A DNA stretch of 64,000 nt from Octopus vulgaris (lineage: Eukaryota), in the NCBI GenBank assembly GCA_951406725.2, contig OX597842.1:14880001-14944000 (forward strand), in the 5' to 3' direction. Both the position numbers and the translations under genes were made by a program. Position 1 is the first letter of the stretch, and the number at the start of each line of letters is the position of its first letter. Positions 10,130 to 42,144 of this stretch are shown piece after piece. The notes beneath the pieces are model-generated. The model was given only the letters and a program-made list of their open reading frames with translations. It searched no databases and had not been told where the DNA came from.

Positions 10130-10201
10130 ATATTTGAGTGGAAATAATATCGACAAAATTGAATTAGGGACATTCGATGATCTGACCAGGTTAACATATC
10201 T
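10130..10201 (+). CDS. LRR exon: YLSGNNIDKIELGTFDDLTRLTYL
   Basis: ttttatgttacAG / GTAAGT, 72 nt. Confidence 0.9.
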
Positions 10202-12494: not shown

Positions 12495-12566
12495 ATATTT
12501 GGAAAACAACCAAATACAAAACTATGAGGATGGCGCGTTCTTATTCCTTCCTAGTATTTCTTACAT
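12495..12566 (+). CDS. LRR exon (unique): YLENNQIQNYEDGAFLFLPSISYI
   Basis: tttcttttttccAG acceptor, GTATGT donor, 72 nt, phase 2-2. Confidence 0.88.
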
Positions 12567-18763: not shown

Positions 18764-18933
18764 CGACCTCAGTAACAATAAAGATATGATGTGTGGATGT
18801 CACCTGCCAACCTTGGTAAATTATACTAAATCAAAATTCAGCAGAACTGTGAGGGTCCTAGGCGAGTGTCAGACAGATCCAGGCAATATCCAAAGCAAAA
18901 TTATACCTATAATGGAATACTCGCAATGTCAAA
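18764..18933 (+). CDS. Last LRR plus LRR C-terminal cap exon: DLSNNKDMMCGCHLPTLVNY...GECQTDPG...YSQCQ
   Basis: tttataatttcAG / GTTAGT; 170 nt, phase 2-1; LxxN..CxC..C..C LRRCT pattern. Confidence 0.88.
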
Positions 18934-18986
18934 GTTAGTAAAATCTTCCTTGTTTTTGTTATTTAATTATTAGCACTAACAACGTC

Positions 18987-19170
18987 GGCGAGTTAACACA
19001 ATCGTTGGCTCGCCGGGCAAAGCGCTCAGAAACATTTCGTGCAACCTTACAGTCTTATTTCAAACTCTGTTCAATTCGATTTTGCCTTTCACCCTCTCAG
19101 GATCGATAAAATAAGTATCAGTTAAACACTGCCGTCGATGTAGTCAACTAATTTCCTCCCCACAAAAAAA
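18987..19170 (+). mobile_element. SINE fragment with Nin-domain-like core
   Basis: ttttgcctttcaccctctcaggatcgataaaataagtatcag resembles the Nin-SINE central domain; related copy at ~34150-34330. Confidence 0.6.
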
Positions 19171-19301
19171 ATCAGGCCATGTGGCTTATTACCATAAGGA
19201 GAACTCCGGGATATTCTCTCCTGCTCATAATATCAGGAGAGACTGTATGTAAATATATACATGTACACATACATACCCCACACAATACACACACATATAC
19301 A

Positions 19302-19428
19302 GAGTGGCTCTGTGGTAAGAAGCTTGCTTCCCAACCAAATGGTTCCGGCTTTAGTACCACTGCATGACACCGTCCGACTAAGGCCTTGTGAGTAGATTTG
19401 GTAGAGGGAAACTGAAAGAAACCCATCT

Positions 19429-19496
<68 letters not shown>

Positions 19497-19700
19497 TCAA
19501 TCTGGGCTTGTCCCACTCACTGTCGCTTGATAGCCGATGCTGGTGTGTTTACGTCTCCGTAACGTGGCGGTTCGGCAACGTAAATGACAGAATAAGTACT
19601 AGGCTTACAAAGAATAAGATATGGGGTCGATTTGTTCGACTAAAGGCGGTACTTTAGCATGGTCGGAGTCAAATGACTGAAACAAGTAAAGGAATGAAGA
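19302..19700 (+). mobile_element. tRNA-derived SINE with microsatellite interruption
   Basis: gtggctctgtggtaagaagcttgcttcccaacc...ggccttgtgagtagatttggtag..gaaactgaaagaa; family recurs at ~51775-51925, ~55710-55840, ~59790-59915 (-), ~61040-61180. Confidence 0.75.
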
Positions 19701-19736
19701 ATAAAGTATAACACACACAGGCACACGCACACACAC

Positions 19737-19773
19737 ATGTCATATATATATATACATATATACATACATACAG

Positions 19774-19821
<48 letters not shown>

Positions 19822-19903
19822 ATATATACATATACATATACATATATATATATATATATACATACACACATACATACATACATATATATATACATATATA
19901 TAT

Positions 19904-19951
<48 letters not shown>

Positions 19952-20011
19952 CTGTATATATAAATACATACATACATACATATATATATATTTATATGTA
20001 TGTATATATAT
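19737..20011. repeat. (TA)n/(TACA)n microsatellite
   Basis: Direct inspection. Confidence 0.9.
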
Positions 20012-20242
20012 AACATCAGCCACAAGGCCCGAAATTTTGTGAGGAGGGAATTAGTCGATTACATCGACGGCAGCGTTCAACTGATACTTATTTATTGCCA
20101 AACTAATGAGGTAGTCCATAGACATAGGAGGATTCTGCTTTTGATTAGCTCAGATCGCCTCTAGCTAGCTATATAATGCACAAATCTGCGTCCATAAACC
20201 TTCGAACGGGATAGGTCATCAACTTCCCCCTGCTGGCTTGGC

Positions 20243-20287
20243 ATCAACAGACCGGTTTCGGGGTAGTTGCTCCTTATCAACGTGGAG
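20243..20287 (-). ncRNA. Minimal hammerhead ribozyme, U3-A8 variant
   Basis: Minus: ctccacg-TTGATAA-ggag(caacta)cccc-GAAA-CCGG-TC-tgttg. Confidence 0.6.
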
Positions 20288-20496
20288 CAGCCGAGGCCAG
20301 CAGGGGTCGCTGTTGACCTCTGTTCAGCATTCGTTCTATTTCTCTGGACTCCCAATTTAGTTTGGCAATATCTATTAATACCTCGTACTGCTGAGATTTT
20401 GAAATTATAACATTTCTATTTCTGAAAATCAGGGAATGTGTTTTACTGAATGGAATCTTCAAACAGAAGTCAAGTGACCCCTAGTGAACTCGGCTG

Positions 20497-20540
20497 CTCC
20501 ACATTGACAAAGGGCAATTACCCCGAAACCGGTCAGTGAG
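20497..20540 (+). ncRNA. Minimal hammerhead ribozyme, U3-A8 variant
   Basis: Plus: ctccaca-TTGACAA-aggg(caatta)cccc-GAAA-CCGG-TC-agtgag. Confidence 0.6.
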
Positions 20541-21001
20541 TGTGAAACAAGCAGAGGGAAATCCATGACTTCCCATTATCGAAGGCTTATGCAGGCAGAT
20601 TTGTGCGTCATGTAGCTAGTTAGATGCGATCCCTTCTCTGAGCTCATCAACAGCAGCATTCGTCCTACTTCTCTAGACTACCACATTTGTTTGTCAATAA
20701 ATATTAATACCCAGTACTGCTGTTGTATCTCTACTTTAGAGAGATTTAGACATTATAACATTTCTGCTTTTGAATATCAGTGAAAGCTTCATTGAATACA
20801 CACACACATATTAGGAGAGATATTAGCAGAGATAACCGGGATTAAAATGGATTTCAGTCATGTGATTCCGGCCAAGGTGAAACATCACATTTAGTCGAAC
20901 AAATAAACACTTGTCTTTATTCTGTCGGTATTTCGCCAACCGCCAAGTATATATATACTGCCTGTCCTCTCTGTGTTTAGCTCTTTGTGGGTAGTAAAGA
21001 A

Positions 21002-21045
<44 letters not shown>

Positions 21046-21050
21046 ATGTG

Positions 21051-21097
<47 letters not shown>

Positions 21098-21583
21098 AAT
21101 TTCTCCTGATGACCCCACAAGCCTGCTAGTTTCTGGTATTATCAGTGTCTTTTACTGAACCGCTAGGTTATGGCGAGGTAACATCAGCAACATCAGTTGT
21201 CAGAAACTTTTAATGACATTCACAGATTTTATAAAGGAGTTCATTCTACAAAAGCATAAATCACCAGTTCAGAATTATTTCCCTTTATTTGAGTTCTTCC
21301 ACAATTTTCGCACTTTTTTGAGAGAGCAAAATACAAATAGAAAAGGCCATCAAATACCTTCCATAGTATTCTCAGTTGAATTTCTAACGACTGAAATAAT
21401 TGTAAATGAAAGTCGTAACATGCTCTTATAGTCTTCATTAATAATTTTCTTTTAATATCTCACATGTATTGATTCCAACCTTAACACTTTTACATTTGGT
21501 TTACACCACAAAGTGTTTATTTCCTCTTATTCTTATACATTACATATTTCGTTCCTAAGTACGGATATTTTTGTATTGTATAG

Positions 21584-21675
21584 ATTACTCGTTATTTCAA
21601 CGCAATTTGCAGTGTCAAACATGTTCAGGTTTTACATGCAAGGAATCAGAAGTGACAACCTGTACAGGCGATGAG
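21584..21675 (+). CDS. aGPCR exon, N-half of Ly6/uPAR-like domain: NYSLFQRNLQCQTCSGFTCKESEVTTCTGDE
   Basis: ttttgtattgtatAG / GTAAGC; 92 nt, phase 1-0; LxCxxC start of an LU domain. Confidence 0.87.
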
Positions 21676-21829
21676 GTAAGCTGAAATGTTACTTTCTTCT
21701 TTTTAATATACACTTAACACTCACTTAAAGCCAATATGGCTACGTAACCTGTCCCAAGATTTAGCAAATTGTTATAGATGCCCATGAAATCGTAAGTAGC
21801 TACAGACACCCTCTCAGTCTTTCTATCCT

Positions 21830-23360
21830 TTAATCAGCAGAACACCATGGATCAGTGGAATGTGTGAACATACGTGCCTTGGAGTCAATTTGGAAGCAAG
21901 GTCCGTTGTTCAGGGACCTCCGATCGCATGACTTATGAGATATTCCTGTATCTTAGAATTTTCGTTTGAACGATGGCTATGTTATCAGGCAAGTCACTGA
22001 ATTTCAAAGTATGGGCAGTTATTCTCCACATCTGTGCTACCAGATGCTCCACAACGATGTTCTGAAAGCAATGCATTCGTACAGTGAAGGTGGTATTCTC
22101 AGTTTAGTAGTTGTGTGATACCTCTGTGTGAAGGGGGATCGATTTCTCAGGGCATTAGAAAGGTTTGCTCGGGAACCCTCGATCTCAATTAGGTGAATTT
22201 GAAACTGCACTTTATACACAAGGCTGTGTGAGAGTAATGCAAAGAAGGGGCTACAAAGAACATCGAAATCCTGCTTTAACGGTTCCAGGGGTCTATAGAT
22301 TTATGACTGGATTTTCCTGATGTAACTGTACAGACTCGGAGCATCCCAGATTGGTCATCTTAATCGTATCTTGAAAGAGTGTTAGGCCAGCAGATAAGGA
22401 TAGTGTAGGATACCCTTAGTTTAAAGTGAATGTTGGACGTGTGTCTTCGAGCTTGCAAAGATTACAGGGGTTACACTAATAAATTTGTGAAGCAATGCAA
22501 TAGTTGAGAGGGATTATCATCCACAACCAGTGGTAGTGCGTCGTTAAAAATACGAAGATGATGTTTAAGTTAGAGAGCGTTTAGCGAAGTGCTATCGATT
22601 GGGTCCACGCAGAGATGTGAAGCTTTCCCACAGCATTTCGTTCATGTGTTCGGGACAGGCAATGGATCGGAGACAGTAGTGTTCTGCAGTACTTATATCG
22701 ATGGACTATCGGTAGATGTGAAGTGTATCGAGAAGCCGATTACATCATTTGAAATATTGAGAGCAATAGACTCTTGCACAAGGCGTAAATAGTCCGGTTT
22801 GGATGGTCTGCCTTTCGGGTTTTAGTAATACATGCCAGACGAAATCATTCTGCAGTCACTCGTTCAATGTCCGGATATTGCTGATTTGTGGAGTTATGAT
22901 AAACAACTCCTGTCTGATGGGGGACGGTTCTGGCTATCAACCGAGTGCATCATGATGAATGCTCCGCCAACAACCTTTATCAGAGTAGGGAAAGTAGTTT
23001 TCCTCTGTCTGTTGACTATAACGAAGGGGGTTGTGTGGAAGATGTAAGTTATGAGTTCTAAGACATTCATCTTTTGGTCGAGGCCTCATTGACTTCTTCA
23101 AGATTCAATTAAGAAATAAATTGTGTGTGGAGAGGAAGGTGCTGTCCATAAGTGAATTTATTGAAAGGTTGGCGAAGACGGTTGACCTCGCAAGAGCGAA
23201 TGGCACTGCTCTAAACGTATAGACCCATGTGACGGAAGAAAATTAATTGGAGAGGGCAGTTGCCTTTAATATTCAGGGTGAGGTTGGATGGTGGGGTTCT
23301 TCGATTGGTTCCAGAGGTCCTCCTCCATTGCGAGGATCACATCACCATCATCTTTAAACT
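21830..23360 (-). mobile_element. Highly decayed retroelement relic, probably Penelope-like
   Basis: GC-richer intronic block; minus-strand fragments resemble a GIY-YIG start (SLVYKVQ..) near 22220 and the PLE RT C-terminus; motifs are degenerate. Confidence 0.4.
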
Positions 23361-24488
23361 CGTATGCCATTCTCTTTTATACCGTGCATGCTTATTTCCG
23401 TATATTTACAATTCCATTCTATGAGCATCCACACACTTTATGTCTTTATTTGTATTGGCCACTCATCAGTCGCCCATTACCAAAATACAAAAATTATTAT
23501 TATAATCATTATTATTGGGATATATATCCAACTTTACCAGATATAATTACTTCATTTGTTTTTTGAAGTTTGTAAATTATTAAGACGTCAGGAACATAGA
23601 ATTTTCGCTGAAAACAACAAAGTTTCTAAAACGGGTAGAGAGATTCGAAGGATTGCCTTGTTCTGATGTTACAACACTAATCATGATAACAGGAGATGTG
23701 GGTTCGAATTCCGCAGGCAGTCTCCGACACCATTTTTATCCAAGGGGTTTTCTAAACCAATATTAACACTCTATTATTTATAGCTTGCCTAATTCAAGAT
23801 TCATCGTTTCAAGAAAGAATTATCAAGAAGTGTGATGTTCTTCAGTGATATTTTCTCTCCAACTTTTATGCGAATATTGTGTATCTTCATTTTATTGCAA
23901 TAGAATATGCATGCTGATGAGAAATATATACTCTACCTTTTGAATCCATTTATGCATTTTCTGTTTTATTTGCAAAACCTGAGTGTTTAAGTCCAGCCCT
24001 TTATTTGATTATCCTTATTTACGGCAGTTACCGCTGCGCTTGTTTCCGTAGTTGCTGAGGTTCACACCAAAGATATTTCGTACACTTTCTATGAAGACTT
24101 CACTGTGCAATACGCAAAAAGTATCGGTTAAATGATAAGGTTTTCAATGGAATTTATCATTTCCTTTTTCCTGCGTTTGGGAATGGGTGACAGAGCGGTG
24201 ATGATATGATAGCGTTAGGTATCTTCAACATATATCACACATCATTTACAAGCGATAAATATAAGTAAATCCCCAGAACATTGCTTATTCAGTTGTCTTT
24301 CAAGACTTCATCAGTTTGTATCGATCCAATTCGTTGCTTTTCGATAAGTTTTTGAATAATGATTCATTTAACTTTCGCGCATACTAAATATTCCCTATGC
24401 TGTTGCTGTTGCTTGCAGCAGCAGTAGTAGTAGTATCTTCAGCAGCAGAAGTGGTAGTAGTATATGATTTTTGTATTTATTGCAACAG

Positions 24489-24672
24489 CCTGTATGTGAA
24501 AATAAGACAACGATGAATGGTGTTACACTGGAGTTTGAAAAATCCTGCAGCACATACAGAAAATGTCTTGCAGCTCTGAGAAACAATACCTTTACATGCA
24601 ATAACTGGACCAGTGGCGCTTCTTGTGTTAGTTGTTGCACCGGAAACTTATGTAACGGGAAACATTCCATTG
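24489..24672 (+). CDS. aGPCR exon, C-half of Ly6/uPAR-like domain: PVCENK...KSCSTYRKC...TCNNWTSGASCVSCCTGNLCNGKHSI
   Basis: ttgcaacAG / GTAAGC; 184 nt, phase 0-1; CCxxxLCN LU-domain signature. Confidence 0.9.
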
Positions 24673-25289
24673 GTAAGCGATGTTTATTTTCTTATATAAT
24701 TTAACCTGATTTATTAGACGTGAGTGTTTAATAAGAAAATTGTATACTAGTTAATATATGAAAAGGTATAATCGCCGTAATCAGTTTTCAAACTTTATTG
24801 CGTTCCCATTAGAGGTGCGTACATCACTTGACCAATCCCAGAGAAACAAGTAACACAGCTGTTTATATAAACAACAGTTCTTGTAACTTCAGACACCTGG
24901 AGACACTAATTTGTATATTATTACTATATAACACTTTATTTAAAATCGGCGTCCTATCAACAGAACTGTCAGTCGACAACGCACACACACATACACGTAT
25001 GCACACACACGCATACACACACGCACACATAACACACACTCACACATATACACATATATATATTTATGTGTGTGTGCGTTGTTAGTTGATGTGTCGGCTG
25101 CGTTTTAGGTTTAGGAGAATATATTCTTAAAAACACCTGAACGTAAGTTAGAGGGAAGTGAAGCAACTTACATCAGGTCCCTTTTTCTGAGTGACAGACA
25201 ACGATGCATGGTCATTGTTGTGACTTTCAATGTCACGTACCGAACAATATCTGACTATAACTATATGTTAAATGGCTTAAACTCTAATC

Positions 25290-26120
25290 CATAATTGAAT
25301 CATTTTCCGTGGTATCAAATACTTGGAAATGCCAAGAGAGGATATTCATCTTTATATGAAACAGAATATTCAAAAGTGAAATAGAAGCAGCACTCGTTTT
25401 ATAAACGTCCTCGATCACATACTTAATGTGTTGTGTGTTTGAAGGTAGACTGCGATTCAACGAGGGGGGTATCATCATGTCAAAGTACAAGTTGTTAAGC
25501 ATCGACGCCCATCCCCACTGAATGGAATTTAGGGCGAGTTGTCTAGCCTGTCCATGACTTTCAGGTGCTTAAGAAAACCCGGTGGTTTGTGGTAGTAATA
25601 CACATCACGCTGTTTCGGAGCCTACTATGCAATAAATCGTCTTCCTTAGGTATGGTCGAAGATATATGTAATTTAGAGATGTTTCGACCAAAGATGGGTC
25701 CAGGTAATGTCTAACTCAATAGTACAACCGAATGGGATTTGCTAAATCCTTCCTATGTCATATTTTGTGGTATCATGGCCCATTCGAGTAAGGAGTTCTT
25801 GTTGATTCATTTGTATCCAGGAATATGTGGTTTACTGACATCCCTTGAAGAAAATTTCTCCAGATTCCCTTCAAATGTTATGGGGTCCTTTCTCTCATTG
25901 ATCTGTTTTGAGACAATGTTAAATAAGGCAGTGGCTGTTGAGGAAAGGAATTTGTGTGGCAGTGTATCTATGTTCTGTGATTCTAAATTGTGGAGGGGAC
26001 GTGCGACTAAGGGTCCTAACCTTGGATGGATGCTGAAACTAAATTTGAGGTCGTTGGGGGAATGCTGATGGATTATTCTCTATATCGTTCAAATGATGTA
26101 TCGCTCACGGCGGCGCTGGA
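25290..26120 (-). mobile_element. Decayed retroelement fragment, possibly Penelope-like RT
   Basis: Minus-strand fragment SMLNNLYFDMMIP resembles PLE RT motif SFDVxNLYTxIP; many stops. Confidence 0.35.
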
Positions 26121-26129
26121 GAAAATAGA

Positions 26130-26202
<73 letters not shown>

Positions 26203-27039
26203 CGTGTGTGTGTGAGCGCGCGCGTGCGTGTGTGTATTACAAATGTAGCATATGATAAACAAGACGAAAATCGAGAGTATATAGATATAATCTAATTTAT
26301 TTACTTATAGATAATTAGAATGCCTACAATTGTTTCACTTTTACTCAATACCTATTACAAATTTATAAAAAATAAATGAAATTTGCAGTTAGAATATTAT
26401 ATGAGCAAAATCTCAACCGGGCTAATTGACATAAAGAGATTAGATGTTGTTTTCTTGAGATTTTAAATAGACTGAACCAAATAAAAATAAATAAGACAAT
26501 TCATCCTTTATAAATGTGTACGTGTATAGATTTTAGTACATCTGTCGTGTGTGTCTTGTTCCTAATCTCAATGATACCCTTCTGTCGAGAAAAGTGTAGC
26601 GAAAGGGAAAGATGTAGAAATGAACTATACATGTATAATAATAGCGTGTAAATTTTGAACACACACACATATATATATATGTGTGTGTGTGTGTGTGTAT
26701 GCGTGTGTGTGTGTGTGTATAATTCTGGTTAGAAGAAATAGAAACAAACCTCAATGTGGGATGTGTTGTATCGGACGCCTCCATGTGCGAAGTGGGTTGC
26801 TCCACTACTAAGAAATAATGGACTAACACAGTCAGCAGTTTCAGGCGGCGAGGATGCTGTTCGGGCTGGTCTCACAGACGACGAAGTACGTCGTGATGAG
26901 GTGGGACAAATTAGTGTCGAGTAGGACACAACAATATAGAAGGTACGGAAGGTATTTGAAAAGAGTTTTATAGATTACAAAGAAACGCTGAGACAAACCA
27001 AATCACAATATCTTCTGATGACACTTTAAATTTGTTCAA

Positions 27040-27430
27040 AAGTATTTTGGATCTGATTAAATGATTTTGTTTTCTTTTTTTTTTTCTGACATGAATTTAA
27101 CTCTCCTTATGACGTAAGATTTGTATCTGATGTCTTCATGCACAAAATTTCTGAATGTTTGTTTTTTTTCTGATTCGAAACTTTTTGTGATTGACTTCAT
27201 TGATTTTCCTGGCTTGTCTTCAACGTGTTGCTTAAGCACCTGAATACGTTCAGGCGTGCTGCAAGGATCAGATTCCTTAAAATGTTTTATACGTTTTGAC
27301 ACAGGTAATACGCTTCCATCTTCTTCCTCTAACTCACACCTAATCTTATGCAAATTTCAGAAAACGAGAAATTTCTAAATCACCATACTTAGCCTTCAAA
27401 GCCTCTACGGCGGTTTTCGGTTATTCTACC
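27040..27430 (-). mobile_element. Tc1/mariner transposase N-terminal fragment
   Basis: ORF 27057-27353: ...VEDKPGKSMKSITKSF..TFRNFVHEDIRYKSY (HTH region typical of mariner-like transposases). Confidence 0.65.
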
Positions 27431-28340
27431 TTAAGCCTTCTCTTAGGCTATATTATTTATTTAGGCTTTTTTCTGAGTAAGTAAGAATATAATGATTCAA
27501 CGTCACTTATACTCAAGTGTTATCATTATAACTAAAACCCTAACTGCAGTTATAACGTCGTATAGACATATACGCATGGAACGCTACATCAACGACCATG
27601 TATGTTGAATATTTTAATCGTGTCCTTTAAACCGATATAAGAAACATAAAACAAAGATTACAGAAATGCATATTTATCTATGCTCAGTTGAAAAACAAAC
27701 GTGAAGAGAAACATATTCTTTTTAATTATTTTTTATTATACAAATGTAATATTTTATATTTTTTTTACAGTAAGAAAGATAACTTTGTCGTGGAGAAAAA
27801 ACGACTTTAAATTCCTTAGCTAATTTATTCTTTCTATCTAATACGTTAACCAACAAATCAAAATAGATTTGTGATTAACTTAGACATGGCATAAAAATTA
27901 CCGATGTCTCCAAAAGAGTGAGTGACGTGGAGTTGAGTGACTACCAAACGAACACTGATATATTTTCCAAAATCCAGGGTTTTTATAACTGCTCAACCTG
28001 ACTTAAAAAGAATCCATGACAGATATTCTTTTCGAAACTTCTAGAATCATTATATGAGCAGTTATATTAAACAATGGGAAAAAACGAAAATGATAATTCT
28101 TCGGCAAAGAAATTACGTAATTTTGCCAATTCGCGCCACAATTCAAAATGGCTAAAATGGTTATTGCTACACCTCAATCACAACATGCCTTTCCATTTCA
28201 TTACTAAGCATAGCGCCTGTCATTGTTATTTTCTGAAATAGAGGTTGAATAAATGTTACTTAAATAAAATAATGGCTAAAAACAGAAGTATCCTCAAATA
28301 GCGTCTGCACCAGATATACACACACACACATATAGATGTA

Positions 28341-28405
<65 letters not shown>

Positions 28406-29412
28406 GCATATATATAAAAGGCAGGATGTGTGTGTGTACGTGAATGTAATTTATGCACGTCCACAAATTTGCACGCATATCGCTCCAACATTCGTCACGA
28501 CCCTAGCTGTATTTTCGTCAAATTATTTTCTCCTGAGGCACCGGCGAATACCGGTAAAAATAAATTTTCGACTATAACATAACAATTTTTACGGCGGAGA
28601 AATCTACCATTATTTACAGACATGAGTTAAGTCCCCTTGTAGTGACGGAGTTAAGAGAGGGACGGAGGGGGAGAGAGAGAAAGATTATAGAGTTTTAAAA
28701 TTTCGTGTTTTTATTGAGTGATTGACAGGCAAAAACAGACAGACATGTGTTGTTATGTATGTATGTATGCATGTATGAGTACAAAACACCTGTATGCAAT
28801 ATATATATATATAAACGATATTTTCCGTTTCTCCACAACTAAATTCCAAATTAGCGGAAACGGTTGCTCTACTAGTAGCTGGTTGTGCGTGAACATGGGA
28901 GAGAGCAGAGGTTACCAGAGCAAAATACCTACATGTTGACTGTAGACACGCTCCTTCGCAAACGATAAGCTATTATTTTGTAAACAATGTTTCGAAACTG
29001 TTCATGTTTTCGAAAGAAGAGATCTGACTCTCACATATCTGTGGGAGAAGGTAGGCCTCTCTATTCCACTAACAAAACTCATGTCTGGGTGTCAAATTTG
29101 CATATTGTAAACAATGTTTCGAAACTCTATATTTTCGGAAGGAGAGATCTGACTCTTTTCAACCATAACGTCTACCAGTTTTGATGTATTTTGTTCAAAT
29201 TTGTTGCCAGCATTACTTAGGACTCATGCGATCTTTGAATGCTTGACGTTCTCCAAAAACCAAAATAATAAAAGAAAACAATCGATGGGTGGAAACAATC
29301 GATAAACCGATTCCTTATGGGATTTCCCAATCAAATTGTCTGCAAAATTTCAGCCAAAAGTTTACCAATTTCAACGGATTTCACTCAAATTTGACGTCGA
29401 TGTTACTTAGTT

Positions 29413-29467
<55 letters not shown>

Positions 29468-29539
29468 GCTGCTGCTGCTGATGCTGATGCTGGTACTACT
29501 GCTAGTCCTATTACAACTACTACTGCTCTTGCTGCTACT

Positions 29540-29602
<63 letters not shown>

Positions 29603-29750
29603 GCTGCTGCTGCTGATGCTGATGCTGGTACTACTGCTAGTCCTATTACAACTACTACTGCTCTTGCTGCTACTACCACCACTACTACTACTACTGCTGT
29701 TGCTACTACCACTACTACTACTACTAGATAGAATAGTAGTAGTACTATAT
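29413..29750. repeat. (CTA)n/(CTG)n microsatellite with an internal ~120 bp tandem duplication
   Basis: ctgctgatgctgatgctggtactactgctagtcctattacaac occurs twice. Confidence 0.9.
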
Positions 29751-29869
29751 AGATTAGTACAGTTACTTGCCCAGCCACCATTATCAATATCCATGTATTT
29801 CCAGGATATAATCCACACCAATGAATTCTCTGAGATATATCTCATACAAATGTTTTATTTCTTTTTCAG

Positions 29870-29984
29870 TGTTTTGTAAAGAAAGCACAACCTCAACAAG
29901 CAATGGTACTTTCTATTGGCCAATGACAAAAATAGGAACTGATGTGACGATCCCATGTCATGCAAATGTAGCAACGAGACACTG
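29870..29984 (+). CDS. aGPCR exon, HRM domain part 1: VFCKESTTSTSNGTFYWPMTKIGTDVTIPCHANVATRHC
   Basis: tttctttttcAG / GTTCGT; 115 nt, phase 1-2; C....G...WP.T..G.....PC....ATR.C HRM motif. Confidence 0.92.
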
Positions 29985-30049
29985 GTTCGTTTCTATTGTT
30001 TTACGTCTTCTCAAATTTGAAATTTTCATTGTCATCGAAGTGTTAGTTA

Positions 30050-30955
30050 ATGTTACGTTGTATGTTATGATAATTCTGCCTGTCACTACGTTACTTAGCC
30101 CCATCGGTAACGCCATCACGTGATTAGAGATAAAGAGTGAGAAAGAAAAGATAGGGAGAGTAAAAAGTGAAAGAAAAAGACAGCGAGCGAAAAAAGAGAG
30201 AAAAAGAGAGAGCATCGTGCATGACGTGTGGCAGAGGGAAAGTAATTGTAAGGCTTTTATGTGATTAGTTTAATGGAAAGAGAGAAGAGGAGAGATAAAG
30301 AAAGAAGAGGAGAGATAAAGAAAGAAGAGGATAAAGTGGAGATAGAGACAGAAATAAGGAGAAAGTAAAAGAGGAGGAAAGAAGTGTCCATGACGTATGA
30401 TAGAGCGAACCTAATATTTATTACGTAGTTTATAAAAGTTAGTTGAAGGTAGTGGAGAATTGAAAATATGATGTCAGCGGAGCGGTGGTGTTCTGATGGT
30501 GAGATTAAAGACAGTCAAAGAGAGGGGGAGGTGAGAAAAGAGGAGGGAGATATGTTCATGGTGGTGGTGGAGACGGCCATGGGAGTGAATAGTGAAAATG
30601 TTTTTTTTATTTGAAATAAGTATTTTATATCACCTGTCACCGTGAAATAGTTATTCTTATTTTATTGGAAGATACATGCAATTTAACTAATATGTACGGG
30701 ATATCATTTTTCATTTGTTTATGGAGGAAACGGGAAAATAAGAGTGAATATTTATTTTATGTGTGTTGTGTATTGAGTCTATAAATTTGTGAATAAATTA
30801 TATAAAATATGTATATATAAAGTGTATTTCAATGAATAGCAGATTATCATTTGATACAAGCGAAGGCTAATCTTTCAGGATATTTCGATAAAGTTTTCAA
30901 AAATAACCCATTACGTTTACCGTTAATTCCGTGAACTATTCATCGGTGCCGCTAG
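30050..30955 (+). mobile_element. Non-autonomous Helitron (5' end approximate)
   Basis: 3' hairpin ccgtgaactattcatcgg followed by gccgCTAG|t. Confidence 0.55.
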
Positions 30956-32214
30956 TCTATAATATAAACTGGACATGGGCGATCGTTGTATTCTCTCTTG
31001 TCTTGAGGTTCACAGCTAAACGGTTGGGTGATTCGCGTGAAAAATGGCACACATGAGAAGACGGATGCATGGATTGGAATGCGGTTTGCGTTTTCCTAGA
31101 CCCCATAGTTACCGAGAAAAACGATTAAACCCTTTTCTAATGGAATTCCCCCCGCCATTAAAACAACCAGTCGCTCACACAAACGGCATATACCATTTCG
31201 CTAGCAACAAGGAGAGTACAGGATTACAGCCAGCCAAAGCCATACATACAAACATACATACATATATACATACATACATATATACATACATACATACATA
31301 ACCTCTCTCTCCTTTTCTCTGTCCGTCACGCACACATGCATTCACTACAAAAAGTGAATAAGAAAAATGCAGTTAACTCTCTCTCTCGGCCAAATATAGA
31401 TATATGCATCTATGTATACGTACATACATATATGCATGCATAACAACCTGCGTGCGTGCGTGTGTGTGTGTCACTGAAGCCATCCATACATACATAACGC
31501 TTCTCTCTGTCGCTTTTTCTTTGTCAATCACTCACACATTCACTCGCTACAAAAAGTAAATAAAAAAAATTTCCGTTAACTCTCTTTCACACACACACAT
31601 ACACACACACCAGCAACGTTACTCTTTCCGTCTCTTCACACACACTAACAAAAGCAATTCAGATACACACCACACATTCTATCTCGCACAGTATATGAAG
31701 CACACACACACACGCACACAAAACTCTTTCTCACATACACGCACGTACGCACGCTCAGCAATTCTTCCGCTTTACGCCAACTTCAAAAGAACTTCACTCA
31801 TATATTCGCGCTCTCTCTGTTATTTTCGATTTCACGCCGACTTCAAAAGATTCCCTGTCCACCTAACCCCATATTAAAACGATAAATATTTTTTATGGAG
31901 ACCGACGATCCTCTTCAAAAATATACAAACGTGATTTATTAGTGGTTTGTGAGAGTCGTGTGTTCCCATATCGAAAGATCGCCCAATGATTTAATGATTA
32001 GACAATAGAATATCTCTCAGAAACTGACTACGTTCAAATTCGTTCTTCCCAATTCTCTTTTTAGACCGGGGAGGGGATATTAATACACCTGGAGACTCCA
32101 ATCGAAACAGGGAACCCGAAATGCTAAGGTTGAGAAAGGCTGTTATAGATTACGCCGAACGGGAAACGATCACAGCCACATCATCCAAACAGACCGGGCG
32201 GGCTTAGATGCTAG
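30956..32214 (+). mobile_element. Second non-autonomous Helitron, head-to-tail with the previous one
   Basis: Starts TCtataatataaact immediately after CTAG; ends accgggcgggcttagatgCTAG|t. Confidence 0.5.
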
Positions 32215-33042
32215 TAGTATATAAAACACTTAGAGCGATTAAGATAAAACTAATGTCCATTAGTTCAAATCATTTAACACTGATATTTTACATTTTCCAC
32301 AATGACATTTTTTGTAAAGATTCCTGTAAGTGCCAGAATGTTAAAAAAAGTTGCGCAGAAAACATAGATCTAGACTCAGCCAATAGCCTTTATCACTAAT
32401 TCTATTGATTTCAGAGTAACGTTATTTATTCAATTGGTTATTATATAATGGTAAGCGAAGAAAGCTGGTCATTGTGGGACCTGTCGCATCATATTTATCA
32501 TTTTTTCGTATCCTCCACGTTATTCCACGTGCTAAGCATCTAAAGTGTTATTGCTGGGGTCTGAGTTTTATAAGTTTTAAGACAAAGATGGAAGTTGTCA
32601 AATCTGTTCATGTAGAAGATATACGTAAATCTACTATGGATGATGATGACGACGAAATATAAATAGGTGATTTGCCCACTCACTTAAGACTAGCAGCATC
32701 TTGCCTTAGTACTTCATTCACCATATTAGTCCATCCTAACTTGAATTTTAAAAGTCGCAACAAAATATAACGAATAAAAGCAAATTTGGCAATATTTTTA
32801 AAATCTAACTTTTAGTAAGAACATATTTTACATTATTAGATCTCAGAATGAGATTGAAACAGTAATCGCTCGACAATGTAAAGTATAGAAGCCATCTTAA
32901 CATGGCTAACCACATAGGGTAGAGGGTGTTACTGTAGCTTTACAGCCCCAGGAGCGTGTCGTCTACAGTTGGCTTTAGACACCATATCAGTGTCCTTAAA
33001 GTATTTGCAAAGGGAGGCCATCCCTTCCTCGCAAGCCTGAGT

Positions 33043-33093
33043 GATACGCTCGGACTAGTTTCGGGATTGTTGTCCCATGTCAACGGGCGGGAT
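33043..33093 (-). ncRNA. Degenerate minimal hammerhead ribozyme (U3-A8 type, A9 mutated)
   Basis: Minus: atcccgcccg-TTGACAT-ggga(caacaa)tccc-GAAA-CTAG-TC-cgagcgtat. Confidence 0.5.
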
Positions 33094-33268
33094 GATAACA
33101 AGGTGGAGTAAATAATAGATTACTGACAAAATACATCACAGTATTTAACTTTGTTTCACTAGATTATGAGTTCAAATCACGATAAGGTCAATGTTTTTCT
33201 CACTTTCCTCTGACATCGATGAAATATATATGCTTATTTATATAACTTATTTGATATTTATTTTTCAG

Positions 33269-33438
33269 TTCTTCCGGAGAGATGGTAGGTCTAGAAATGC
33301 CAACAAATCAGTATGGTACATCACCAAAAGGTTCACCATTCACTGGCGTCTGGCAAGAACCAGACATGTCTCAGTGCTACAATACAGAGAGGATCACTCA
33401 ACAACTAAAGAACATTACAAGTGAAGATATCAATGAAG
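33269..33438 (+). CDS. aGPCR exon, HRM part 2 / GAIN start: SSGEMVGLEMPTNQYGTSPKGSPFTGVWQEPDMSQCYNTERITQQLKNITSEDINE
   Basis: tttttcAG / GTGAGT; 170 nt, phase 2-1; G.W..PD.S.C HRM end. Confidence 0.92.
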
Positions 33439-34748: not shown

Positions 34749-34980
34749 AAAATGTTGAGGAGGTTTCAACAATACTCAGCGATATTTCCAAGAAATCAGT
34801 TTATTTCAAAGCAGAAGATATTGACTTGGCTGTTGATATTCAAGAGAAAATGCTGCCATTGATACCAAATGTGCCCGCCGATATAACACTAAAGAACATA
34901 CTTCTTAGTATCAACAATATGATAGACACACCGGAAGAGATTTTGGTTGAAGCAGAACAATCAGATGGAACTGGGAGCAG
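34749..34980 (+). CDS. aGPCR GAIN subdomain A exon: ENVEEVSTILSDISKKSVYFKAEDIDLAVDI...SINNMID...EQSDGTGSR
   Basis: cgttgcAG / GTAAAA; 232 nt, phase 1-2. Confidence 0.9.
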
Positions 34981-35009
34981 GTAAAACACATATCACGTTT
35001 GCCGTCAGT

Positions 35010-35131
35010 GTAGCAGCAGCAGCAGTAGCAGGGAAGTAGTAGTAGTAGTAGTAGTAGTAATAGTAGTAGTAGTATTAGTTGTAGTAGTAGTAGTAGTAGT
35101 AGTAGTAGTAATAGTAGTAGTAGTATTAGTT

Positions 35132-35164
<33 letters not shown>

Positions 35165-35400
35165 TTGGCGGTGGCGGTAGCAGTGGTGGTGGATGTAGCA
35201 GTAGTAAGAGGAGAAGGGGAGGAGGGATTGATTTATCGGCGGTTGCGGTGGCTCTAGTGGTAGAAGTAGTAGTGTAGTAGAAGGAAGAGAAGAAGAAGAA
35301 GAAGAAGAAGAAGAAGAAGAAGAAGAAGAATGAGAACAACAACAACAACAAGAAAAGACGAAGACATTGATGATGATGATGATAGTGATGATAAAGAAGC
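35010..35400. repeat. (AGT)n/(AAG)n trinucleotide microsatellites
   Basis: Direct inspection. Confidence 0.9.
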
Positions 35401-35551
35401 AACAACGGCAGCTCTAGCAGCAGACGTAGTAGAAACAATGGTAGCATAAATAGATTTATTAATCAATATAATTAGTGTAATTACACCTATATCTAATTAC
35501 GTATTTGAAACACACTCTTAGTTGAGATTTATTTTCTTGATTTTCTCACAG

Positions 35552-35723
35552 AATGCTGGACATTATAGAAGCAATCCCTGAAGAGATTCCACTGGAAGAG
35601 CCGCAACTGACAGTCTTACATCCTAATCTTGGTATTGGTGCCATCAAAGTGGAGAAGGACACGTTCAATGGGGCTGTCTATGGCATTTCATTTGGAAATA
35701 ATGAATCTGAAGCAAAGACAATG
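35552..35723 (+). CDS. aGPCR GAIN exon: MLDIIEAIPEEIPLEEPQLTVLHPNLGIGAIKVEKDTFNGAVYGISFGNNESEAKTM
   Basis: ttttctcacAG / GTACAG; 172 nt, phase 2-0. Confidence 0.87.
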
Positions 35724-37164
35724 GTACAGTACTTCCTCATGATTTCTCTCTTATTAACCGTTTGTTCTAAATACCCAAATTGATAAAATACATTACAGTG
35801 AAATATAATATCTTTGTTATCATATAAAGTAGCGTTGGTATAAATCTTGATGCAGATTACAATCAATCCAAATACAAAATACAGTATATATACTGCACAG
35901 ATTAGCAACAAGGCTAAAATAATCATTTGTAATTTAGGTACAAAGTTCAAAGTTTTGGGGAAGGTGTCTAGTTGACTACACCAACGCCAATTCTCTGCAA
36001 AATCTGAACTTGGAGCGTAGAGACAAACGAAATGTTGCTACGCATTCACTCCGCCGTGCTAAGTTTTCTTTCAGCTCAATTTAAAACTAATGTAATAATT
36101 GGAGCTTATATACATACAACTGACCTTCACTCTCTTTCTGATCATTTGATTGATTAGAAAAAATATAGCAATACTTCGTCCCATGTCATGCCTCTGGGTA
36201 CCCGAGAACAAGAAATAGATTGAAAGAGAAATCAGAAAGCTAGAAAGGCAAAGGTGAAGAAGAGCAACAGCGGCAGAGTGCCGAAGCGGCGGTACTAGAA
36301 GTTGAAAAGGAGACGGAGGAAGCGGGAAATGCATTTACCGTGGAGAACAGAAAAGGAAAAGAAAAGAATATGTAAACTCACCGCCGAAGAGTCTGAAAAA
36401 GAGAACAAAAAGGAGGAAGAAATGGATATGATAGAGAGCTGGCGTCAACAAAAGGTAAAAGAAGAGGGAGAAATAGGCATTATAGAGATCCAGCGACAAA
36501 AACAAGTGCAACAGCATCACCAACAAAAATACAATAAAAGGAGGAAGAATTGCAGCAAGTATGTACGATAGATTTACCGTGACAAAAAAGAAAAACTTGT
36601 CCGGACAACCCAGGTGTGCAACAGAAATGAGAAGTCGAGAAGCCGCAGAAGAACAAGTAGTATATGGTGACATACGCCAAAAAGTACAGCCATAGAGAGG
36701 AGAGTTACAAAATTCGAATCAGTAATAAAGGTAAGATTACCCATAGAACTGTATACAGAAAATGTAAAAGGAATTGTGATAGACCGAGGGAGGTACTGAA
36801 AACTGAGGGATTTGTTCGGAAACGAGATTGACCCGTTGGGAGTAGAGTTTGATGAACTACCACCTGTTGTGGAGTACAAAGAATTAGAACCATTCGTAAA
36901 TGTCTACAAGAAAGACGTTAAAATTCAAGACAATGCTAAAAGGAAAAAAGAAAAACAAAGATAAAGAAAAATGATTAAAAACTGTGCTAAAACATTTAAA
37001 CGGTACTGCTTGAGATTGGGGCTCAATGCAGCCATGTCATTACCATTAATTATATCCCTCCTTCATTTGCTCGTTTTATGTTTTTTGTCCCCAATGTGGT
37101 ATTCTGCCTGTCCTTGTGCTGTCCCTTCTGTGTCATGGTCGTGTGCCAAATAAAAGAAATGGTA

Positions 37165-40100
37165 GCTGACGGTGTTAGTTCGACGTGTGTTGGCTTAACA
37201 GTCGGTAATTGAACAGGGAATGTTGAGTATCGTACCTACATTCGAGTTGTACAGAGTGCGTTCTATGTTAAGATATATTTCTGCAATAAGTTATTTTTAT
37301 ATAACCACAACCAACTATTTATTTGTGTAATAGTATTTTGCACCAGACCTGTATGCCTGCATAATAACATTTTTGTCGATGAAATTATTCGAAGCTCATG
37401 TTGGACTGATTTTGGCTTCAACATGGAATATTTAATAGCTTCGGTAATTCAATTATAGAAACAGCAACAGCAGCAGCAGCAGTGGAGGTGCCATGGCCCA
37501 GTGGTTAGGGCAGTGGACTCGCGGTTGGAGGATCGTGGTTTCGATTCCCAGACCGGGCGTTGTGTGCGTTTATCCAGCGAAAACACCTAAAGCTCAACGT
37601 GGCTCTGGCAGGGGGTTGTGCCGACCCCTGTTGTATACTTTCGCTCCAATTTCTCTCACTCTTTCTTGTTGTTTCTTATCCCCGACTTCCTACGCAACCG
37701 CTGAGCCTGGATGCACATTCATCCATCCGTCAATGCTCTCGGTGTCGGGGGTTGACCAGCTTTCTCTTCTGCAGGTCTTACAAATAGCAAAGGACCTCGT
37801 TTCGGACTTCTCCCACTCTGGGACGAAGACCGCTTCGCTCAACAAACAAACGAACAGCAGCAGCAACAACAGCAACAACAACAACAACAGTTGTTGGAAT
37901 TACAAAAATAACGGAAACTGTTCGTACAACTGATACAGAAGAAAACATAAAATACATCTAGTTCGTTCACTCCTGACACTGTCCCAAAATTCGATCGGGG
38001 AGTTCGATCGAAGAAGGTTCTTAATTCTCTGCTTACTTTAGAAGGTGAGATGAATATTTTCAAGAAGAATGCTACAACAGGCAAGACGAAAAACAAAAGG
38101 GACTTTTTTGAGAAAGTTGGCAGAAGCCAAGCATGAGAAATATTGAAATTACATATCACCAAAGAAATCGGATGGAAATTTGTTTTGAATAAACGGTGAA
38201 TAATCCATCAAAGATTTTCAGCGATAAAAATCCCTTCATTTAATACGCGTTGGCAATACGTGAATATTACAAACAAATAGAGACGAAACTTTTTATTAAA
38301 TACGCTGTATTCGTTAATAGGGAAAGCGAGAGATTTAAAATTAATGAACTAACACCAGATATGTTTAAATGCTTAGTTTTCGTGCAAAGACTAACGGCAA
38401 AGAAAGATGCTGGATTCGTAACTGAATTCTGCCTAAATTAGAGCAGAATTAGTAGCTAACACTAAAAGAGATATCTCAGGAATATCTCAGAGAATAATAA
38501 AGCTAACACACGATACGGAAGAGAGTGAAGTAACTAACTGCTGTCATATAAATCCGATGCAACCGAAAGAACTGACAAGCAGAAAATTAACTCATGTTTT
38601 GGATGCGCAGACTTACACTACATATTCGACTCTCCTTATAAAACTGGAAAATTCTTCAAGTGTAATAAGATAGGACATTACAAATCACACTGTAAAGCAA
38701 AACCCAGAAAATGGTTTAACGGAAAAAGTTTATCGGGGACAAGAAACACAAACAAGACTCAAAAGAAGATAGTGTATGTAAATGTGATAATAGAAATGTA
38801 GAATTACAGTTCAGTACAGGTATGACATTACTTTAATTAATGAAAAAACGTGGAAAACAATAGGGAAACCTCCACTACAGAAAACCTCGAAGATTGCATT
38901 TGGATTTTCGGAGATTGAATTTTTAAAGGTGAAATTATCTGTAAAGTTACGTTTCGTGGCAAGACTATAAAAGCGAAAGCTTATGAACTAAAACAAACCA
39001 ACAACCTGTTTGGAACTGTTCAAATTATGGAATTTACCCATAAAAAAGTGTTTGTAAAATTGTAATGTGGTCATGCGCAAGTTGTATAGAGAGTTAGAAA
39101 AACATTTTTAAATGAAGTGAAAATGTCGTTCCCTGATGGATTTTTTTGAAAGAATTGGGGTCGGTGTAATAAAGTGAAAGCAAAATTTCAGGTAAAATAA
39201 AATTCAGTACCGGTTTGTAAACCGAAACGTAATGTACAGTTTGCAACAAGTGAAAAAGGAATTGGACAGACTGGAAAAATGGGAGTGATTCAAAAGATCG
39301 AATACTCAACAGTGTACGTAAAAAACAAAACAAAATTGTATGTGTAGATTTCTCGACGGGGTGAACCGACTGTTTAAAACAATATAACTACCAGTTATCT
39401 AGCACAGAGGAAACCTCGAAACTAAACGGTGATAAATTGTTCTCGAAATTAGATCATTCGGATGCCTACTTACAAATGCAAAGGGAAGACAAATGCACTA
39501 AGCTGTTATCAATTAATTCTCATAGACAAATTTAATGGCTTCTCGTTTGATATAAAATTGAACCTACTATATTCCGACAAGTGATGGATGCGATGCTTGC
39601 AGAACGTGACTTCGCAATGGCCTACCTGAATGATATATTTATTAAAAGGGAATCCCATGATCAGGTGTCGATCATATCGAATGTATATATGGAAAAATAA
39701 GAGGTTACGCTTTCAAACTGGGTGAGAAGACATGCGAATTTTTCTTGCCTAAAATTAAGTACTTAGGACAAATTATTAACAAGAACCTTCGATGACCAGA
39801 TCGGTCGAGGACAGAATCAATTAAAAATATGTCCCCTCCGACAAATATATCTACCTAACAAGCTTTTGTTTTGGACTGGTAAACTATTATCAGGCTCCAA
39901 TGATTGATTTCGCTGTAAAGATATTTCATAGATTCTTACACGTCAGAAAGTGTCGACTACAGAGCGAAAATCGTCCGTTATTACCTATCTATGGGTCGAA
40001 GAAAGGAATGCCTACCCATATTGGTAATAGGTTGCAACGCTGGGGTTACTGTATAACTAAATTTTGATTTTAAGATGAAATTTAATTCATCTAAAAAATT

Positions 40101-41718: not shown

Positions 41719-41912
41719 TTGTCCATGGAACATTTTCTATCCAACAGAGGTTGTTCAACCCAATATTTATGGGCTTCAAGAACCACTATTCCAAAACAAA
41801 ATGATTTCACATTCGAAAGTTTATGAATTTTTATGACCTCGACATCATTCAGATGTAGTGGTGTTTTTTATTTATCAATTTCATTTGTTTTTCTTTCATT
41901 TTCTTCCATCAG

Positions 41913-42065
41913 ATATATAACAACTCAGATTCATATCTACAAGTAAATGATAATGTAGACTTCATTTCATTACCAATGAGTTTGTCAAAACATCTGAAAA
42001 CCGAAGATCAGTTTGCCCTCTCAAGGATTACGTTTTTCTCTATGCAGGATGATAAGCTATATAGG
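41913..42065 (+). CDS. aGPCR GAIN exon: IYNNSDSYLQVNDNVDFISLPMSLSKHLKTEDQFALSRITFFSMQDDKLYR
   Basis: ttttcttccatcAG / GTATGG; 153 nt, phase 0-0; ISLP..L and RI.F......L GAIN motifs. Confidence 0.9.
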
Positions 42066-42144
42066 GTATGGAACCAAAACGCAAATTTGTCTTTCTCCAG
42101 ATGAATAAAGGCTTGCATACTTTCGTTGCCACACACACATATTT

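What the first reader, a model, noticed from the sequence alone, without database searches (positions are those of the whole stretch)
18764..33438. Unusual aGPCR architecture: Ly6/uPAR three-finger-like domain between LRR cap and HRM
Seen: exons 21584-21675 and 24489-24672 splice into LQCQTC...C...C...C...KSC...C...C...CVSCCTGNLCN (12 Cys), in frame between LRRCT and HRM. Established: LxCxxC...CCxxxxCN is the LU/three-finger signature, and vertebrate ADGRA2/3 have LRR-Ig-HRM-GAIN. Inference: here an LU-like module occupies the Ig position. I do not know this combination from characterised adhesion GPCRs; it may mark a cephalopod/mollusc-specific subfamily.
Basis: partly seen in the sequence, partly recalled or inferred. 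Interest (0 to 1): 0.72.

Follow-up and report, generated by a model that had tools for sequence, protein, structure and literature searches.

The report
Octopus three-finger receptor lacking signalling half
These exons encode a predicted three-finger (Ly6/uPAR) domain in the outer part of a little-studied mollusc adhesion-receptor family that has many copies in octopus, and this copy has lost six of its seven membrane segments, so it likely makes a tethered or released binding protein that would tune its intact sister receptors rather than signal itself.

Summary
Observation confirmed. Exons 21584-21675 and 24489-24672 join in frame (12 Cys) between LRRCT and HRM; RNA-like contigs show the junctions. 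The fold is predicted three-finger, LYPD1/LYPD6-like. The family (LRR-LU-usually SEA-HRM-GAIN-7TM) occurs in gastropods, bivalves and cephalopods; this genome has 65 LU-exon matches and 41 LU-GPS loci. It is Ritschard's octopus group 3, whose nearest human receptors are ADGRG, not ADGRA. LU-bearing GPCRs are already in print (starfish 2022; molluscs and arthropods 2026), and this scan noted the layout before on other DNA (e1-9503616). TM1 has a frameshift stop (45977), TM2-7 exons are replaced by a 6-kb LINE-bearing block, and contigs carry the truncated spliced form. The same 3' cassette sits on two other paralogues with different ectodomains. Likely product: a tethered or shed ectodomain acting as co-receptor or decoy (0.5); a transcribed pseudogene remains possible (0.4). 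New variant of a known kind.

The parts
1428..10201 (+). Seven near-identical 72-nt, phase 2-2 LRR exons (start 1428, 3889, 5143, 6373, 7635, 8877, 10130) in tandem genomic units. 19 more LRR exons and a signal-peptide/LRRNT exon lie up to about 64.8 kb upstream of the window.
   Evidence: Pfam LRR_8 E=1.6e-4 on one exon
12495..12566 (+). Last LRR exon (72 nt)
18764..18933 (+). LRRCT cap exon
   Evidence: loose ends of RNA-like contigs join it to 21584
21584..21675 (+). LU/three-finger exon A (Cys 1-4)
24489..24672 (+). LU/three-finger exon B (Cys 5-12, predicted loop-III helix, CC-x4-CN end)
   Evidence: (UPAR_LY6_2 E=0.069, below cut-off)
29870..29984 (+). HRM/HormR exon 1
   Evidence: Pfam HRM E=0.03, below cut-off; junction from LU in X4
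33269..33438 (+). HRM exon 2 and start of GAIN
34749..43619 (+). Four GAIN exons: 34749-34980, 35552-35723, 41913-42065, 43491-43619
   Evidence: joint 43619/44358 in X2, X3, X4
44358..44504 (+). GPS exon with HL/T cleavage motif
   Evidence: Pfam GPS E=7.9e-16
45896..45998 (+). TM1 exon, shortened at its 5' end (12 nt against the nearest intact copies) and with a 1-nt deletion giving TAA at 45977-45979; the product ends in 20 hydrophobic residues (mean KD 2.15) with no tail
46130..52130 (.). 6-kb block replacing the TM2-7 exons: TACA microsatellites around a LINE (endonuclease + RT, 46618-49632, minus strand); shared with paralogues T48 and T49
52278..52612 (+). Retained terminal exon of the family (now predicted 3' UTR; end uncertain, poly(A)-like hexamers at 52292, 52385, 52607)
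   Evidence: loose ends behind the TM1 exon in X2, X3, X4 read into this exon type

Best explanation
The two exons encode a predicted six-disulfide three-finger (Ly6/uPAR) domain in the ectodomain of an octopus ADGRG-related adhesion-receptor gene, and this copy has lost TM2-7, so it likely yields a membrane-tethered or shed LRR-LU-HRM-GAIN protein that would act as a non-signalling co-receptor or decoy for its near-identical seven-helix sister genes. Shown: exon chain, junctions in RNA-like contigs, family range, the frameshift, the missing TM2-7 exons, and a 3' cassette shared by three loci. Inferred: in intact members the LRR arm binds ligand, LU is a second protein-binding or spacer module, and GAIN/GPS cleavage with the tethered agonist drives G-protein signalling (established adhesion-GPCR mechanism, not tested here). 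In this copy the stop lies 19 nt before the last junction, so the mRNA is predicted to escape nonsense-mediated decay (50-nt rule, recalled). GAIN is predicted to self-cleave and hold the ectodomain on a short C-terminal piece whose 20 hydrophobic residues would serve as a tail-less helix or a GPI signal. Recombination or gene conversion likely grafted the truncated 3' end onto different ectodomains.
For: Fold: PDB profile search top hit LYPD1 (6zss, E=0.0011) with all 12 Cys aligned; a second profile from non-Octopus members ranks LYPD1 and LYPD6 first. AF2 model of relative P0011 (66% identical LU; 49 rows; pLDDT 71.5) has the beta sheet plus loop-III helix described for Lystar5, a Lynx2-like protein. 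Foldseek rank 1 LYPD1, TM 0.61 by target, E=0.018. VIA-align ranks 1-36 are all LU/three-finger or TGF-beta-receptor folds, best Z 7.8, rmsd 2.9, 75 aligned; first unrelated row Z 4.3. Atlas model of P0003: TM by query 0.66-0.80 to ten clusters, nine named LU-like. Family: full LRR..GPS-7TM proteins with the module in Nucella (P0059) and Pecten (P0070), partial in Argonauta and Mizuhopecten; the 14 octopod rows form one clade, 100/99. Truncation: 3 of 27 TM1-exon matches share the lesion. No TM2-7 exon in 118 kb downstream of this gene or about 30 kb downstream of the other two, while 4 of 4 intact TM1 loci checked show them within 20 kb. X4 contig 26 joins GPS to the shortened TM1 exon with 0 mismatches, over a stretch where T48 differs; X4 contig 27 and X3 contig 21 cross the frameshift with no gap; X2, X3, X4 run on into the terminal exon. 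Mosaic: intron divergence 5' part 3.7% to T48, 3.8% to intact I04, 13.4% to T49; 3' part 1.15%, 19.1%, 2.3%. All ten exons LRRCT-GPS are open, and a signal/LRRNT exon exists. Precedent: Cirl 1TM binds and is needed by Cirl 7TM; GPR126 1TM and 7TM isoforms co-precipitate.
Against: No protein evidence. Selection since truncation is not shown: dN/dS window vs T48 is 0.87 (13 S, 43 N), against 0.48-0.58 for intact pairs; private changes 3 S and 4 N. T48 has lost LU cysteines and no signal exon was found in 70 kb searched. The O. bimaculoides counterpart of T49 (P0074) has intact TM1 and TM2, so the truncation is young. By hand, only about 1-2 disabling hits are expected in 1,563 coding nt at 0.6-1.2% divergence per lineage, so open frames prove little. 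The TM1-to-terminal-exon loose ends match T49's sequence best, not this gene's (2 of 30 nt differ). The residues at the candidate GPI site are not ideal (recalled rules; no predictor was run). No single fold score is strong (Foldseek none at E<=0.001; no Z>=8), the first AF2 run failed (pLDDT 35), and the folded protein was a relative, not this gene's product.
Confidence: 0.5

Rival explanations
1. The gene is a young transcribed pseudogene: a neutral by-product of unequal crossing-over in a large tandem family. The LU architecture is real, but only the intact sisters matter.
For: Truncation absent from the O. bimaculoides counterpart; dN/dS to T48 near 1 and T48's LU decaying; cassette divergence only 1-2%; the tethered-agonist Met is missing; 19 of 65 LU exons have no GPS exon within 120 kb, so fragments are common.
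Against: All ectodomain exons checked are open in all three truncated genes; the truncated spliced form is seen in runs of two organism labels; the cassette sits on three different ectodomains; the stop position avoids predicted decay.
Confidence: 0.4
2. The gene is a normal 7TM adhesion GPCR; the stop is an assembly error or is bypassed by editing or read-through, or TM2-7 lie further away.
For: The frame past the TAA stays hydrophobic for six codons and is in frame with the terminal exon to its old stop, so read-through would give a clean one-helix protein with a tail. Octopus has extensive A-to-I recoding (recalled).
Against: Three loci share the lesion; contigs of RNA-like runs keep it with no change listed at 45977-45979; TM2-7 exons are absent and the terminal exon follows 6.3 kb after TM1. 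Read-through could give one helix, never seven.
Confidence: 0.05
3. The module is a Cys-rich domain that only resembles LU, or is a TGF-beta/activin-receptor-type ectodomain rather than an Ly6-type one.
For: Pfam LU hits are below cut-off; activin receptor type 1 is second in the PDB sequence search (E=0.041); TGF-beta receptors appear in fold lists.
Against: 12 of 12 Cys align to LYPD1; LYPD1, LYPD6B, GPIHBP1 and Prod1 lead the structural lists; both groups share the same three-finger fold.
Confidence: 0.05

Closest known systems
Octopus-expanded adhesion GPCR group 3 (Ritschard et al. 2019, PMC6408891; seen: text part 2 of 6, passages, rows of supplementary file 3)
   Same: Three stored relatives (UniRef A0A0L8GYR2, A0A0L8FLR8, A0A0L8HDZ7 = P0071, P0063, P0067) are listed in group 3; LRR, GPS, 7TM; tandem clusters. 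One member has an SSF57302 hit at residues 136-215 in the table ('snake toxin-like' is my recall of that accession).
   Different: The main text has 0 occurrences of Ly6 or uPAR and counts 21 sequences over its species; here 41 LU-GPS loci in one genome, and this copy lacks TM2-7.
LU-domain GPCRs of starfish (LyAr2/LyAp2; PMC9410279, PMC11595613, passages seen) and of molluscs and arthropods (Paramonov et al. 2026, PMC13719153, parts 1-3 of 4 seen)
   Same: An LU domain in the N-terminal region of an adhesion-type or 7TM receptor; starfish LU similar to LYPD6/Lynx2; the 2026 figure legend lists GPS and LRR among its domains.
   Different: I could not see that paper's figures or supplements, so whether its example is this family is open. 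The text read gives no SEA/HRM layout, octopus expansion or truncated genes. No starfish or arthropod protein appeared among named hits of my searches.
ADGRG6/GPR126 (CUB-PTX-SEA-HormR-GAIN-7TM; PMC6954182, passages seen)
   Same: Best PDB hit for full-length relative P0051 (4e-66); SEA-like + HRM + GAIN stalk in most family members (30 of 35 stored proteins with an HRM motif after LU have a spacer over 70 aa).
   Different: LRR-LU replaces CUB-PTX; the SEA call is weak (Pfam E=0.013; Atlas 0.76; ADGRF1 E=0.019); this gene has no SEA and no 7TM.
LYPD1 (Lynx2), LYPD6, LYPD6B
   Same: 12-Cys pattern, predicted loop-III helix, top sequence and structure hits.
   Different: Those are small single-LU proteins; here LU is an internal phase 1-1 module, present in up to three tandem copies in relatives (P0008). 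About 22% identity; no function can be transferred.
1TM isoforms of Cirl and GPR126 (bioRxiv 10.1101/2023.01.11.521585; abstract and section 12 seen); membrane-anchored NTF transcripts (PMC6667449, passages)
   Same: Full ectodomain with GAIN/GPS on a single hydrophobic segment, no G-protein-coupling bundle.
   Different: Those arise by alternative splicing of one gene and keep a cytoplasmic tail; here the loss is fixed in the genome, in separate genes, with no tail.
ADGRA2/ADGRA3 (LRR-Ig-HRM-GAIN-7TM; layout recalled)
   Same: LRR arm, one small domain, HRM, GAIN; NCBI names one relative ADGRA3 (P0067).
   Different: The published nearest human sequences are six ADGRG, with no AGRA entry in that file; LU is not an Ig fold.

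Membership tests
Ly6/uPAR (LU) three-finger domain | 8-12 Cys with LxCxxC start and CC-x4-CN end | tested here: met
   12 Cys, aligned one to one with LYPD1
Ly6/uPAR (LU) three-finger domain | Three-finger beta fold | tested here: met
   Predicted model of relative P0011 matches LU folds at ranks 1-36, best Z 7.8; prediction only
Ly6/uPAR (LU) three-finger domain | Passes a curated Pfam LU cut-off | tested here: inconclusive
   Exon B alone UPAR_LY6_2 13.8 bits against 31.5; none in 7 relatives
Ly6/uPAR (LU) three-finger domain | Disulfide connectivity | not testable with these tools
Adhesion GPCR (this gene product) | GAIN domain with GPS motif | tested here: met
   Pfam GPS 7.9e-16; GAIN region 68-72% identical to P0006, P0022, P0026
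Adhesion GPCR (this gene product) | Seven-helix secretin-type bundle | tested here: not met
   Stop in TM1; TM2-7 exons absent. The gene derives from an adhesion GPCR but is not one.
Adhesion GPCR (this gene product) | Autoproteolysis at the GPS | not testable with these tools
   HL/T motif is present; cleavage needs protein work
Octopus group 3 adhesion GPCR family (gene lineage) | Clusters with listed group 3 members | tested here: met
   Window model lies in the octopod clade with P0013, P0050, P0055, whose cluster members are in the group 3 table
ADGRA subfamily | Ig domain between LRRCT and HRM | tested here: not met
   The domain is three-finger-like
ADGRA subfamily | 7TM groups with ADGRA | tested here: inconclusive
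   No ADGRA chain was listed in my PDB searches and my tree had no vertebrate rows; the published table names ADGRG1-6 as nearest
ADGRG subfamily | 7TM/GAIN closest to ADGRG | tested here: inconclusive
   ADGRG6/G2/G4 lead for P0051; for the TM5-7 exon ADGRL2, G6 and G2 tie; orthology not tested
GPI-anchored protein | C-terminal hydrophobic tail with a small-residue attachment site | tested here: inconclusive
   Tail mean KD 2.15 over 20 aa, no cytoplasmic residues; site residues not ideal; no predictor available

The most novel reading that the evidence does not exclude
Octopus has a paired-receptor system inside its expanded LRR-LU adhesion GPCR family: a transferable 3' cassette that deletes the signalling bundle is grafted by recombination onto different variable ectodomains, giving gene-encoded GPI- or single-helix-anchored twins that act as decoys or obligate co-receptors of 7TM sisters with almost the same binding face.
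Probability: 0.25. Interest if true: 0.75.

Novelty: new variant of a known kind. Interest (0 to 1): 0.5.

Why it matters
The LU module gives a defined, small domain for finding ligands of the largest octopus adhesion-receptor expansion, which the 2019 study links to arm nerve cord, suckers, skin and gills. Public names for these proteins (toll-like receptor, slit, chaoptin, decorin, ADGRG6-like) hide that they form one family. If the 7TM-less copies are functional, octopus has fixed in its genome the 1TM/7TM partnership that flies and mammals make by splicing, with near-identical ectodomain pairs that are easy to test. If not, the locus is still a clear case of exon-module shuffling and tail swapping in a young receptor family.

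Tried and rejected
AF2 on a 7-row LU alignment failed (pLDDT 35) and was not used. Two of the 30 hits of the representatives search (P0053, P0061) are unrelated repeat proteins (PATR, DUF4116) and were dropped. Pfam gave no LU family over cut-off. The run search listed no holder on record as RNA; contig depths were not used to rank genes. The last homologue search, with a four-row LU-SEA-HRM profile, found only 4 proteins among 6,317 candidates, three labelled molluscan and one unnamed; it is word-limited, so it does not show absence from other phyla. P0039 was left out of the tree because the GPS pattern did not match. dN/dS tests were inconclusive. A profile count of LU domains in G000 could not be made, so 65 is a lower bound from one exon query. 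No complex prediction was run. Paper searches with no paper describing this octopus layout in their listings: adhesion GPCR + Ly6 + GAIN domain + invertebrate, 0 papers; octopus + LU domain + GPCR, 0. The library lacks most subscription journals, and the supplements and figures of PMC13719153 could not be seen and may show this family. The ADGRA 'Ig slot' reading and the assembly-error reading were rejected as above.
Full report
Observation. A gene model built from AG/GT ends runs without a stop from the LRR exons through LRRCT (18764-18933), the two Cys-rich exons (21584-21675, 24489-24672), HRM (29870-29984, 33269-33438), four GAIN exons and the GPS exon (44358-44504). The module has 12 Cys. 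Contigs of runs guessed to be RNA show the GT..AG joint 21675/24489 in 3 of 4 runs laid, loose ends that match the LRRCT exon, and in X4 a loose end identical to the first 30 nt of the HRM exon. Sister genes are 96-99% identical here, so these junctions prove the layout for this subgroup, not strictly for this locus. A signal-peptide/LRRNT exon lies about 64.8 kb upstream, and 27 LRR exons score in between, 8 of them in the window.

Fold. Pfam is below cut-off. A profile of seven LU stretches finds LYPD1 first in the PDB (E=0.0011), with all 12 Cys aligned; a profile from four distant members finds LYPD1 and LYPD6. AF2 failed on 7 rows and gave pLDDT 71.5 on 49 rows for relative P0011. That model matches LYPD1 first by Foldseek (E=0.018) and GPIHBP1, LYPD6B, Prod1 and LYPD1 at Z 7.6-7.8 by VIA-align, with ranks 1-36 all of this fold class. 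The Atlas model of P0003 agrees. No score is strong alone; sequence, two predicted models and the Cys pattern agree. The predicted loop-III helix fits the Lynx2-like subtype (PMC9410279, passages).

Family. The LU exon has 65 matches of 68 candidates in G000, the GPS exon 54 of 62, and the TM5-7 exon 55 among 150 scored of 195. By position, 46 of 65 LU exons have a same-strand GPS exon within 120 kb (41 distinct GPS exons); 37 of those 41 have a TM5-7 exon within 60 kb; 13 LU exons lie in C29 13.0-16.5 Mb. All 45 proteins whose species is shown are Octopus. Further out are Argonauta, Nucella, Mizuhopecten and Pecten proteins and two unnamed full-length proteins on 4-5 kb contigs. The 14 octopod rows form one clade (18 rows, no vertebrates, midpoint root). 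Most members carry about 100 residues between LU and HRM that weakly resemble SEA (30 of 35 stored proteins, some redundant); this gene, P0002, P0022 and P0046 lack it. LU and SEA occur in tandem copies in some paralogues.

What is known. The family is group 3 of Ritschard et al. 2019 (PMC6408891; text part 2 of 6, passages and supplement rows seen): three stored relatives are in its table, its nearest human sequences are ADGRG1-6, and one member has an SSF57302 hit at the LU position that the main text does not mention. LU domains on adhesion GPCRs were noted in starfish (PMC9410279, PMC11595613; passages), and LU-7TM genes in molluscs and arthropods (PMC13719153; parts 1-3 of 4; figures and supplements unseen). 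GPR126 has the SEA-HormR-GAIN stalk (PMC6954182, passages). So the combination is in print in outline but uncharacterised, and ADGRG is a better frame than ADGRA. This scan reported the layout earlier on another contig (e1-9503616) and mosaic ectodomains nearby (e1-8832345); I had reached my reading before that look-up.

The TM1 exon (45896-45998) is shortened at its start and has a 1-nt deletion that gives TAA at 45977; 3 of 27 TM1 matches share this: the window, T48 (C29:15.55 Mb) and T49 (C29:13.46 Mb, public model P0006, which ends at the same residue). None has TM2-7 exons downstream (118 kb, about 30 kb, about 30 kb searched), while four intact loci show them within 20 kb. Homology to intact paralogues stops near 46130 and resumes near 52130; between lies a LINE with microsatellites, shared by T48 and T49. 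The family's terminal exon is retained at 52278. In RNA-like contigs, X4 joins this gene's GPS exon to the shortened TM1 exon with no mismatch, X4 and X3 cross the frameshift without a gap, and X2, X3 and X4 continue into the terminal exon type, best matching T49. DNA run X18 shows none of these exon joints and holds both frameshifted and intact types; it may be the assembly's own sample. The gene is a mosaic: its 5' introns are 3.7-3.8% from T48 and intact I04 and 13.4% from T49, its 3' cassette 1.15% from T48, 2.3% from T49 and 19% from I04. One truncated cassette therefore likely moved between loci by recombination or conversion. The O. bimaculoides counterpart of T49 keeps TM1 and TM2, so the event is young.

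Mechanism. Inferred: the stop is 19 nt before the last junction, so decay is not expected (recalled rule). The product would be signal-LRRs-LU-HRM-GAIN, self-cleaved at HL/T, ending in 20 hydrophobic residues with no tail: a tail-less helix, a GPI signal, or a piece that lets the ectodomain be shed. It cannot couple to G proteins. Its LU-to-GPS exons are 92-100% identical to those of an intact sister, so it would bind the same ligands or the sister itself, as Cirl and GPR126 1TM forms bind their 7TM forms (bioRxiv 10.1101/2023.01.11.521585, abstract and section 12; PMC13197933 and PMC6667449, passages). Against this, selection since truncation is not shown (dN/dS 0.87 to T48; T48's LU has lost cysteines), and too little time has passed for open frames to count for much. 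I put a functional tethered or shed ectodomain at 0.5 and a transcribed pseudogene at 0.4.

Verdict. Real feature, LU reading upheld, ADGRA analogy and novelty of the combination weakened, and the locus itself is a 7TM-less derivative that I did not find described in the searches named. New variant of a known kind; interest 0.5.

Noticed in passing
window 1428-10201 and 19 kb upstream: LRR exons sit one per tandem genomic unit (about 1.25 and 2.5 kb, each with a TAT microsatellite) and in larger repeated blocks upstream; LRR-like exon counts were 27 here, 18 in T49 and 8 in the 70 kb searched for T48.
   Followed up: partly
window 45977-45998 and 52278-52330: The frameshift puts the end of the TM1 exon in frame with the terminal exon, so read-through or double A-to-I editing of the TAA would give a one-helix protein with the ancestral tail; no edit is listed in the contigs.
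   Followed up: partly
G000:C30:15487119 / 15461689 (minus): A fourth LU-GPS locus without a TM5-7 match within 60 kb; its TM1 exon (L069) has no frameshift. It may be another truncation or a missed match.
   Followed up: no
G000:C29:14.42-14.47 Mb (L104-L108): Paralogue I06 carries several tandem sets of SEA-like exons between LU and HRM over about 39 kb.
   Followed up: partly
G000 C31, C30, C2, C5, C1, C14: 19 of 65 LU exons have no GPS exon within 120 kb; these may be secreted LRR-LU genes, fragments or missed matches.
   Followed up: no
window 46618-49632 (minus): LINE with endonuclease and reverse-transcriptase frames, broken by a frame change, inside the block that replaced TM2-7.
   Followed up: partly
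window 55914-58933: Helitron-like remnant with PIF1 helicase frames.
   Followed up: no
window 10911-11900: Mariner-like transposase remnant (HTH_48, E=4.5e-12) in the intron before the last LRR exon.
   Followed up: no
window 38000-41400: Decayed frames that look like a retrotransposon pol remnant in a GAIN intron; one frame tested had no Pfam hit.
   Followed up: no
P0050 / P0062 / P0063: An O. bimaculoides family member has a C-terminal Death domain after the 7TM, as noted in the 2019 paper.
   Followed up: no
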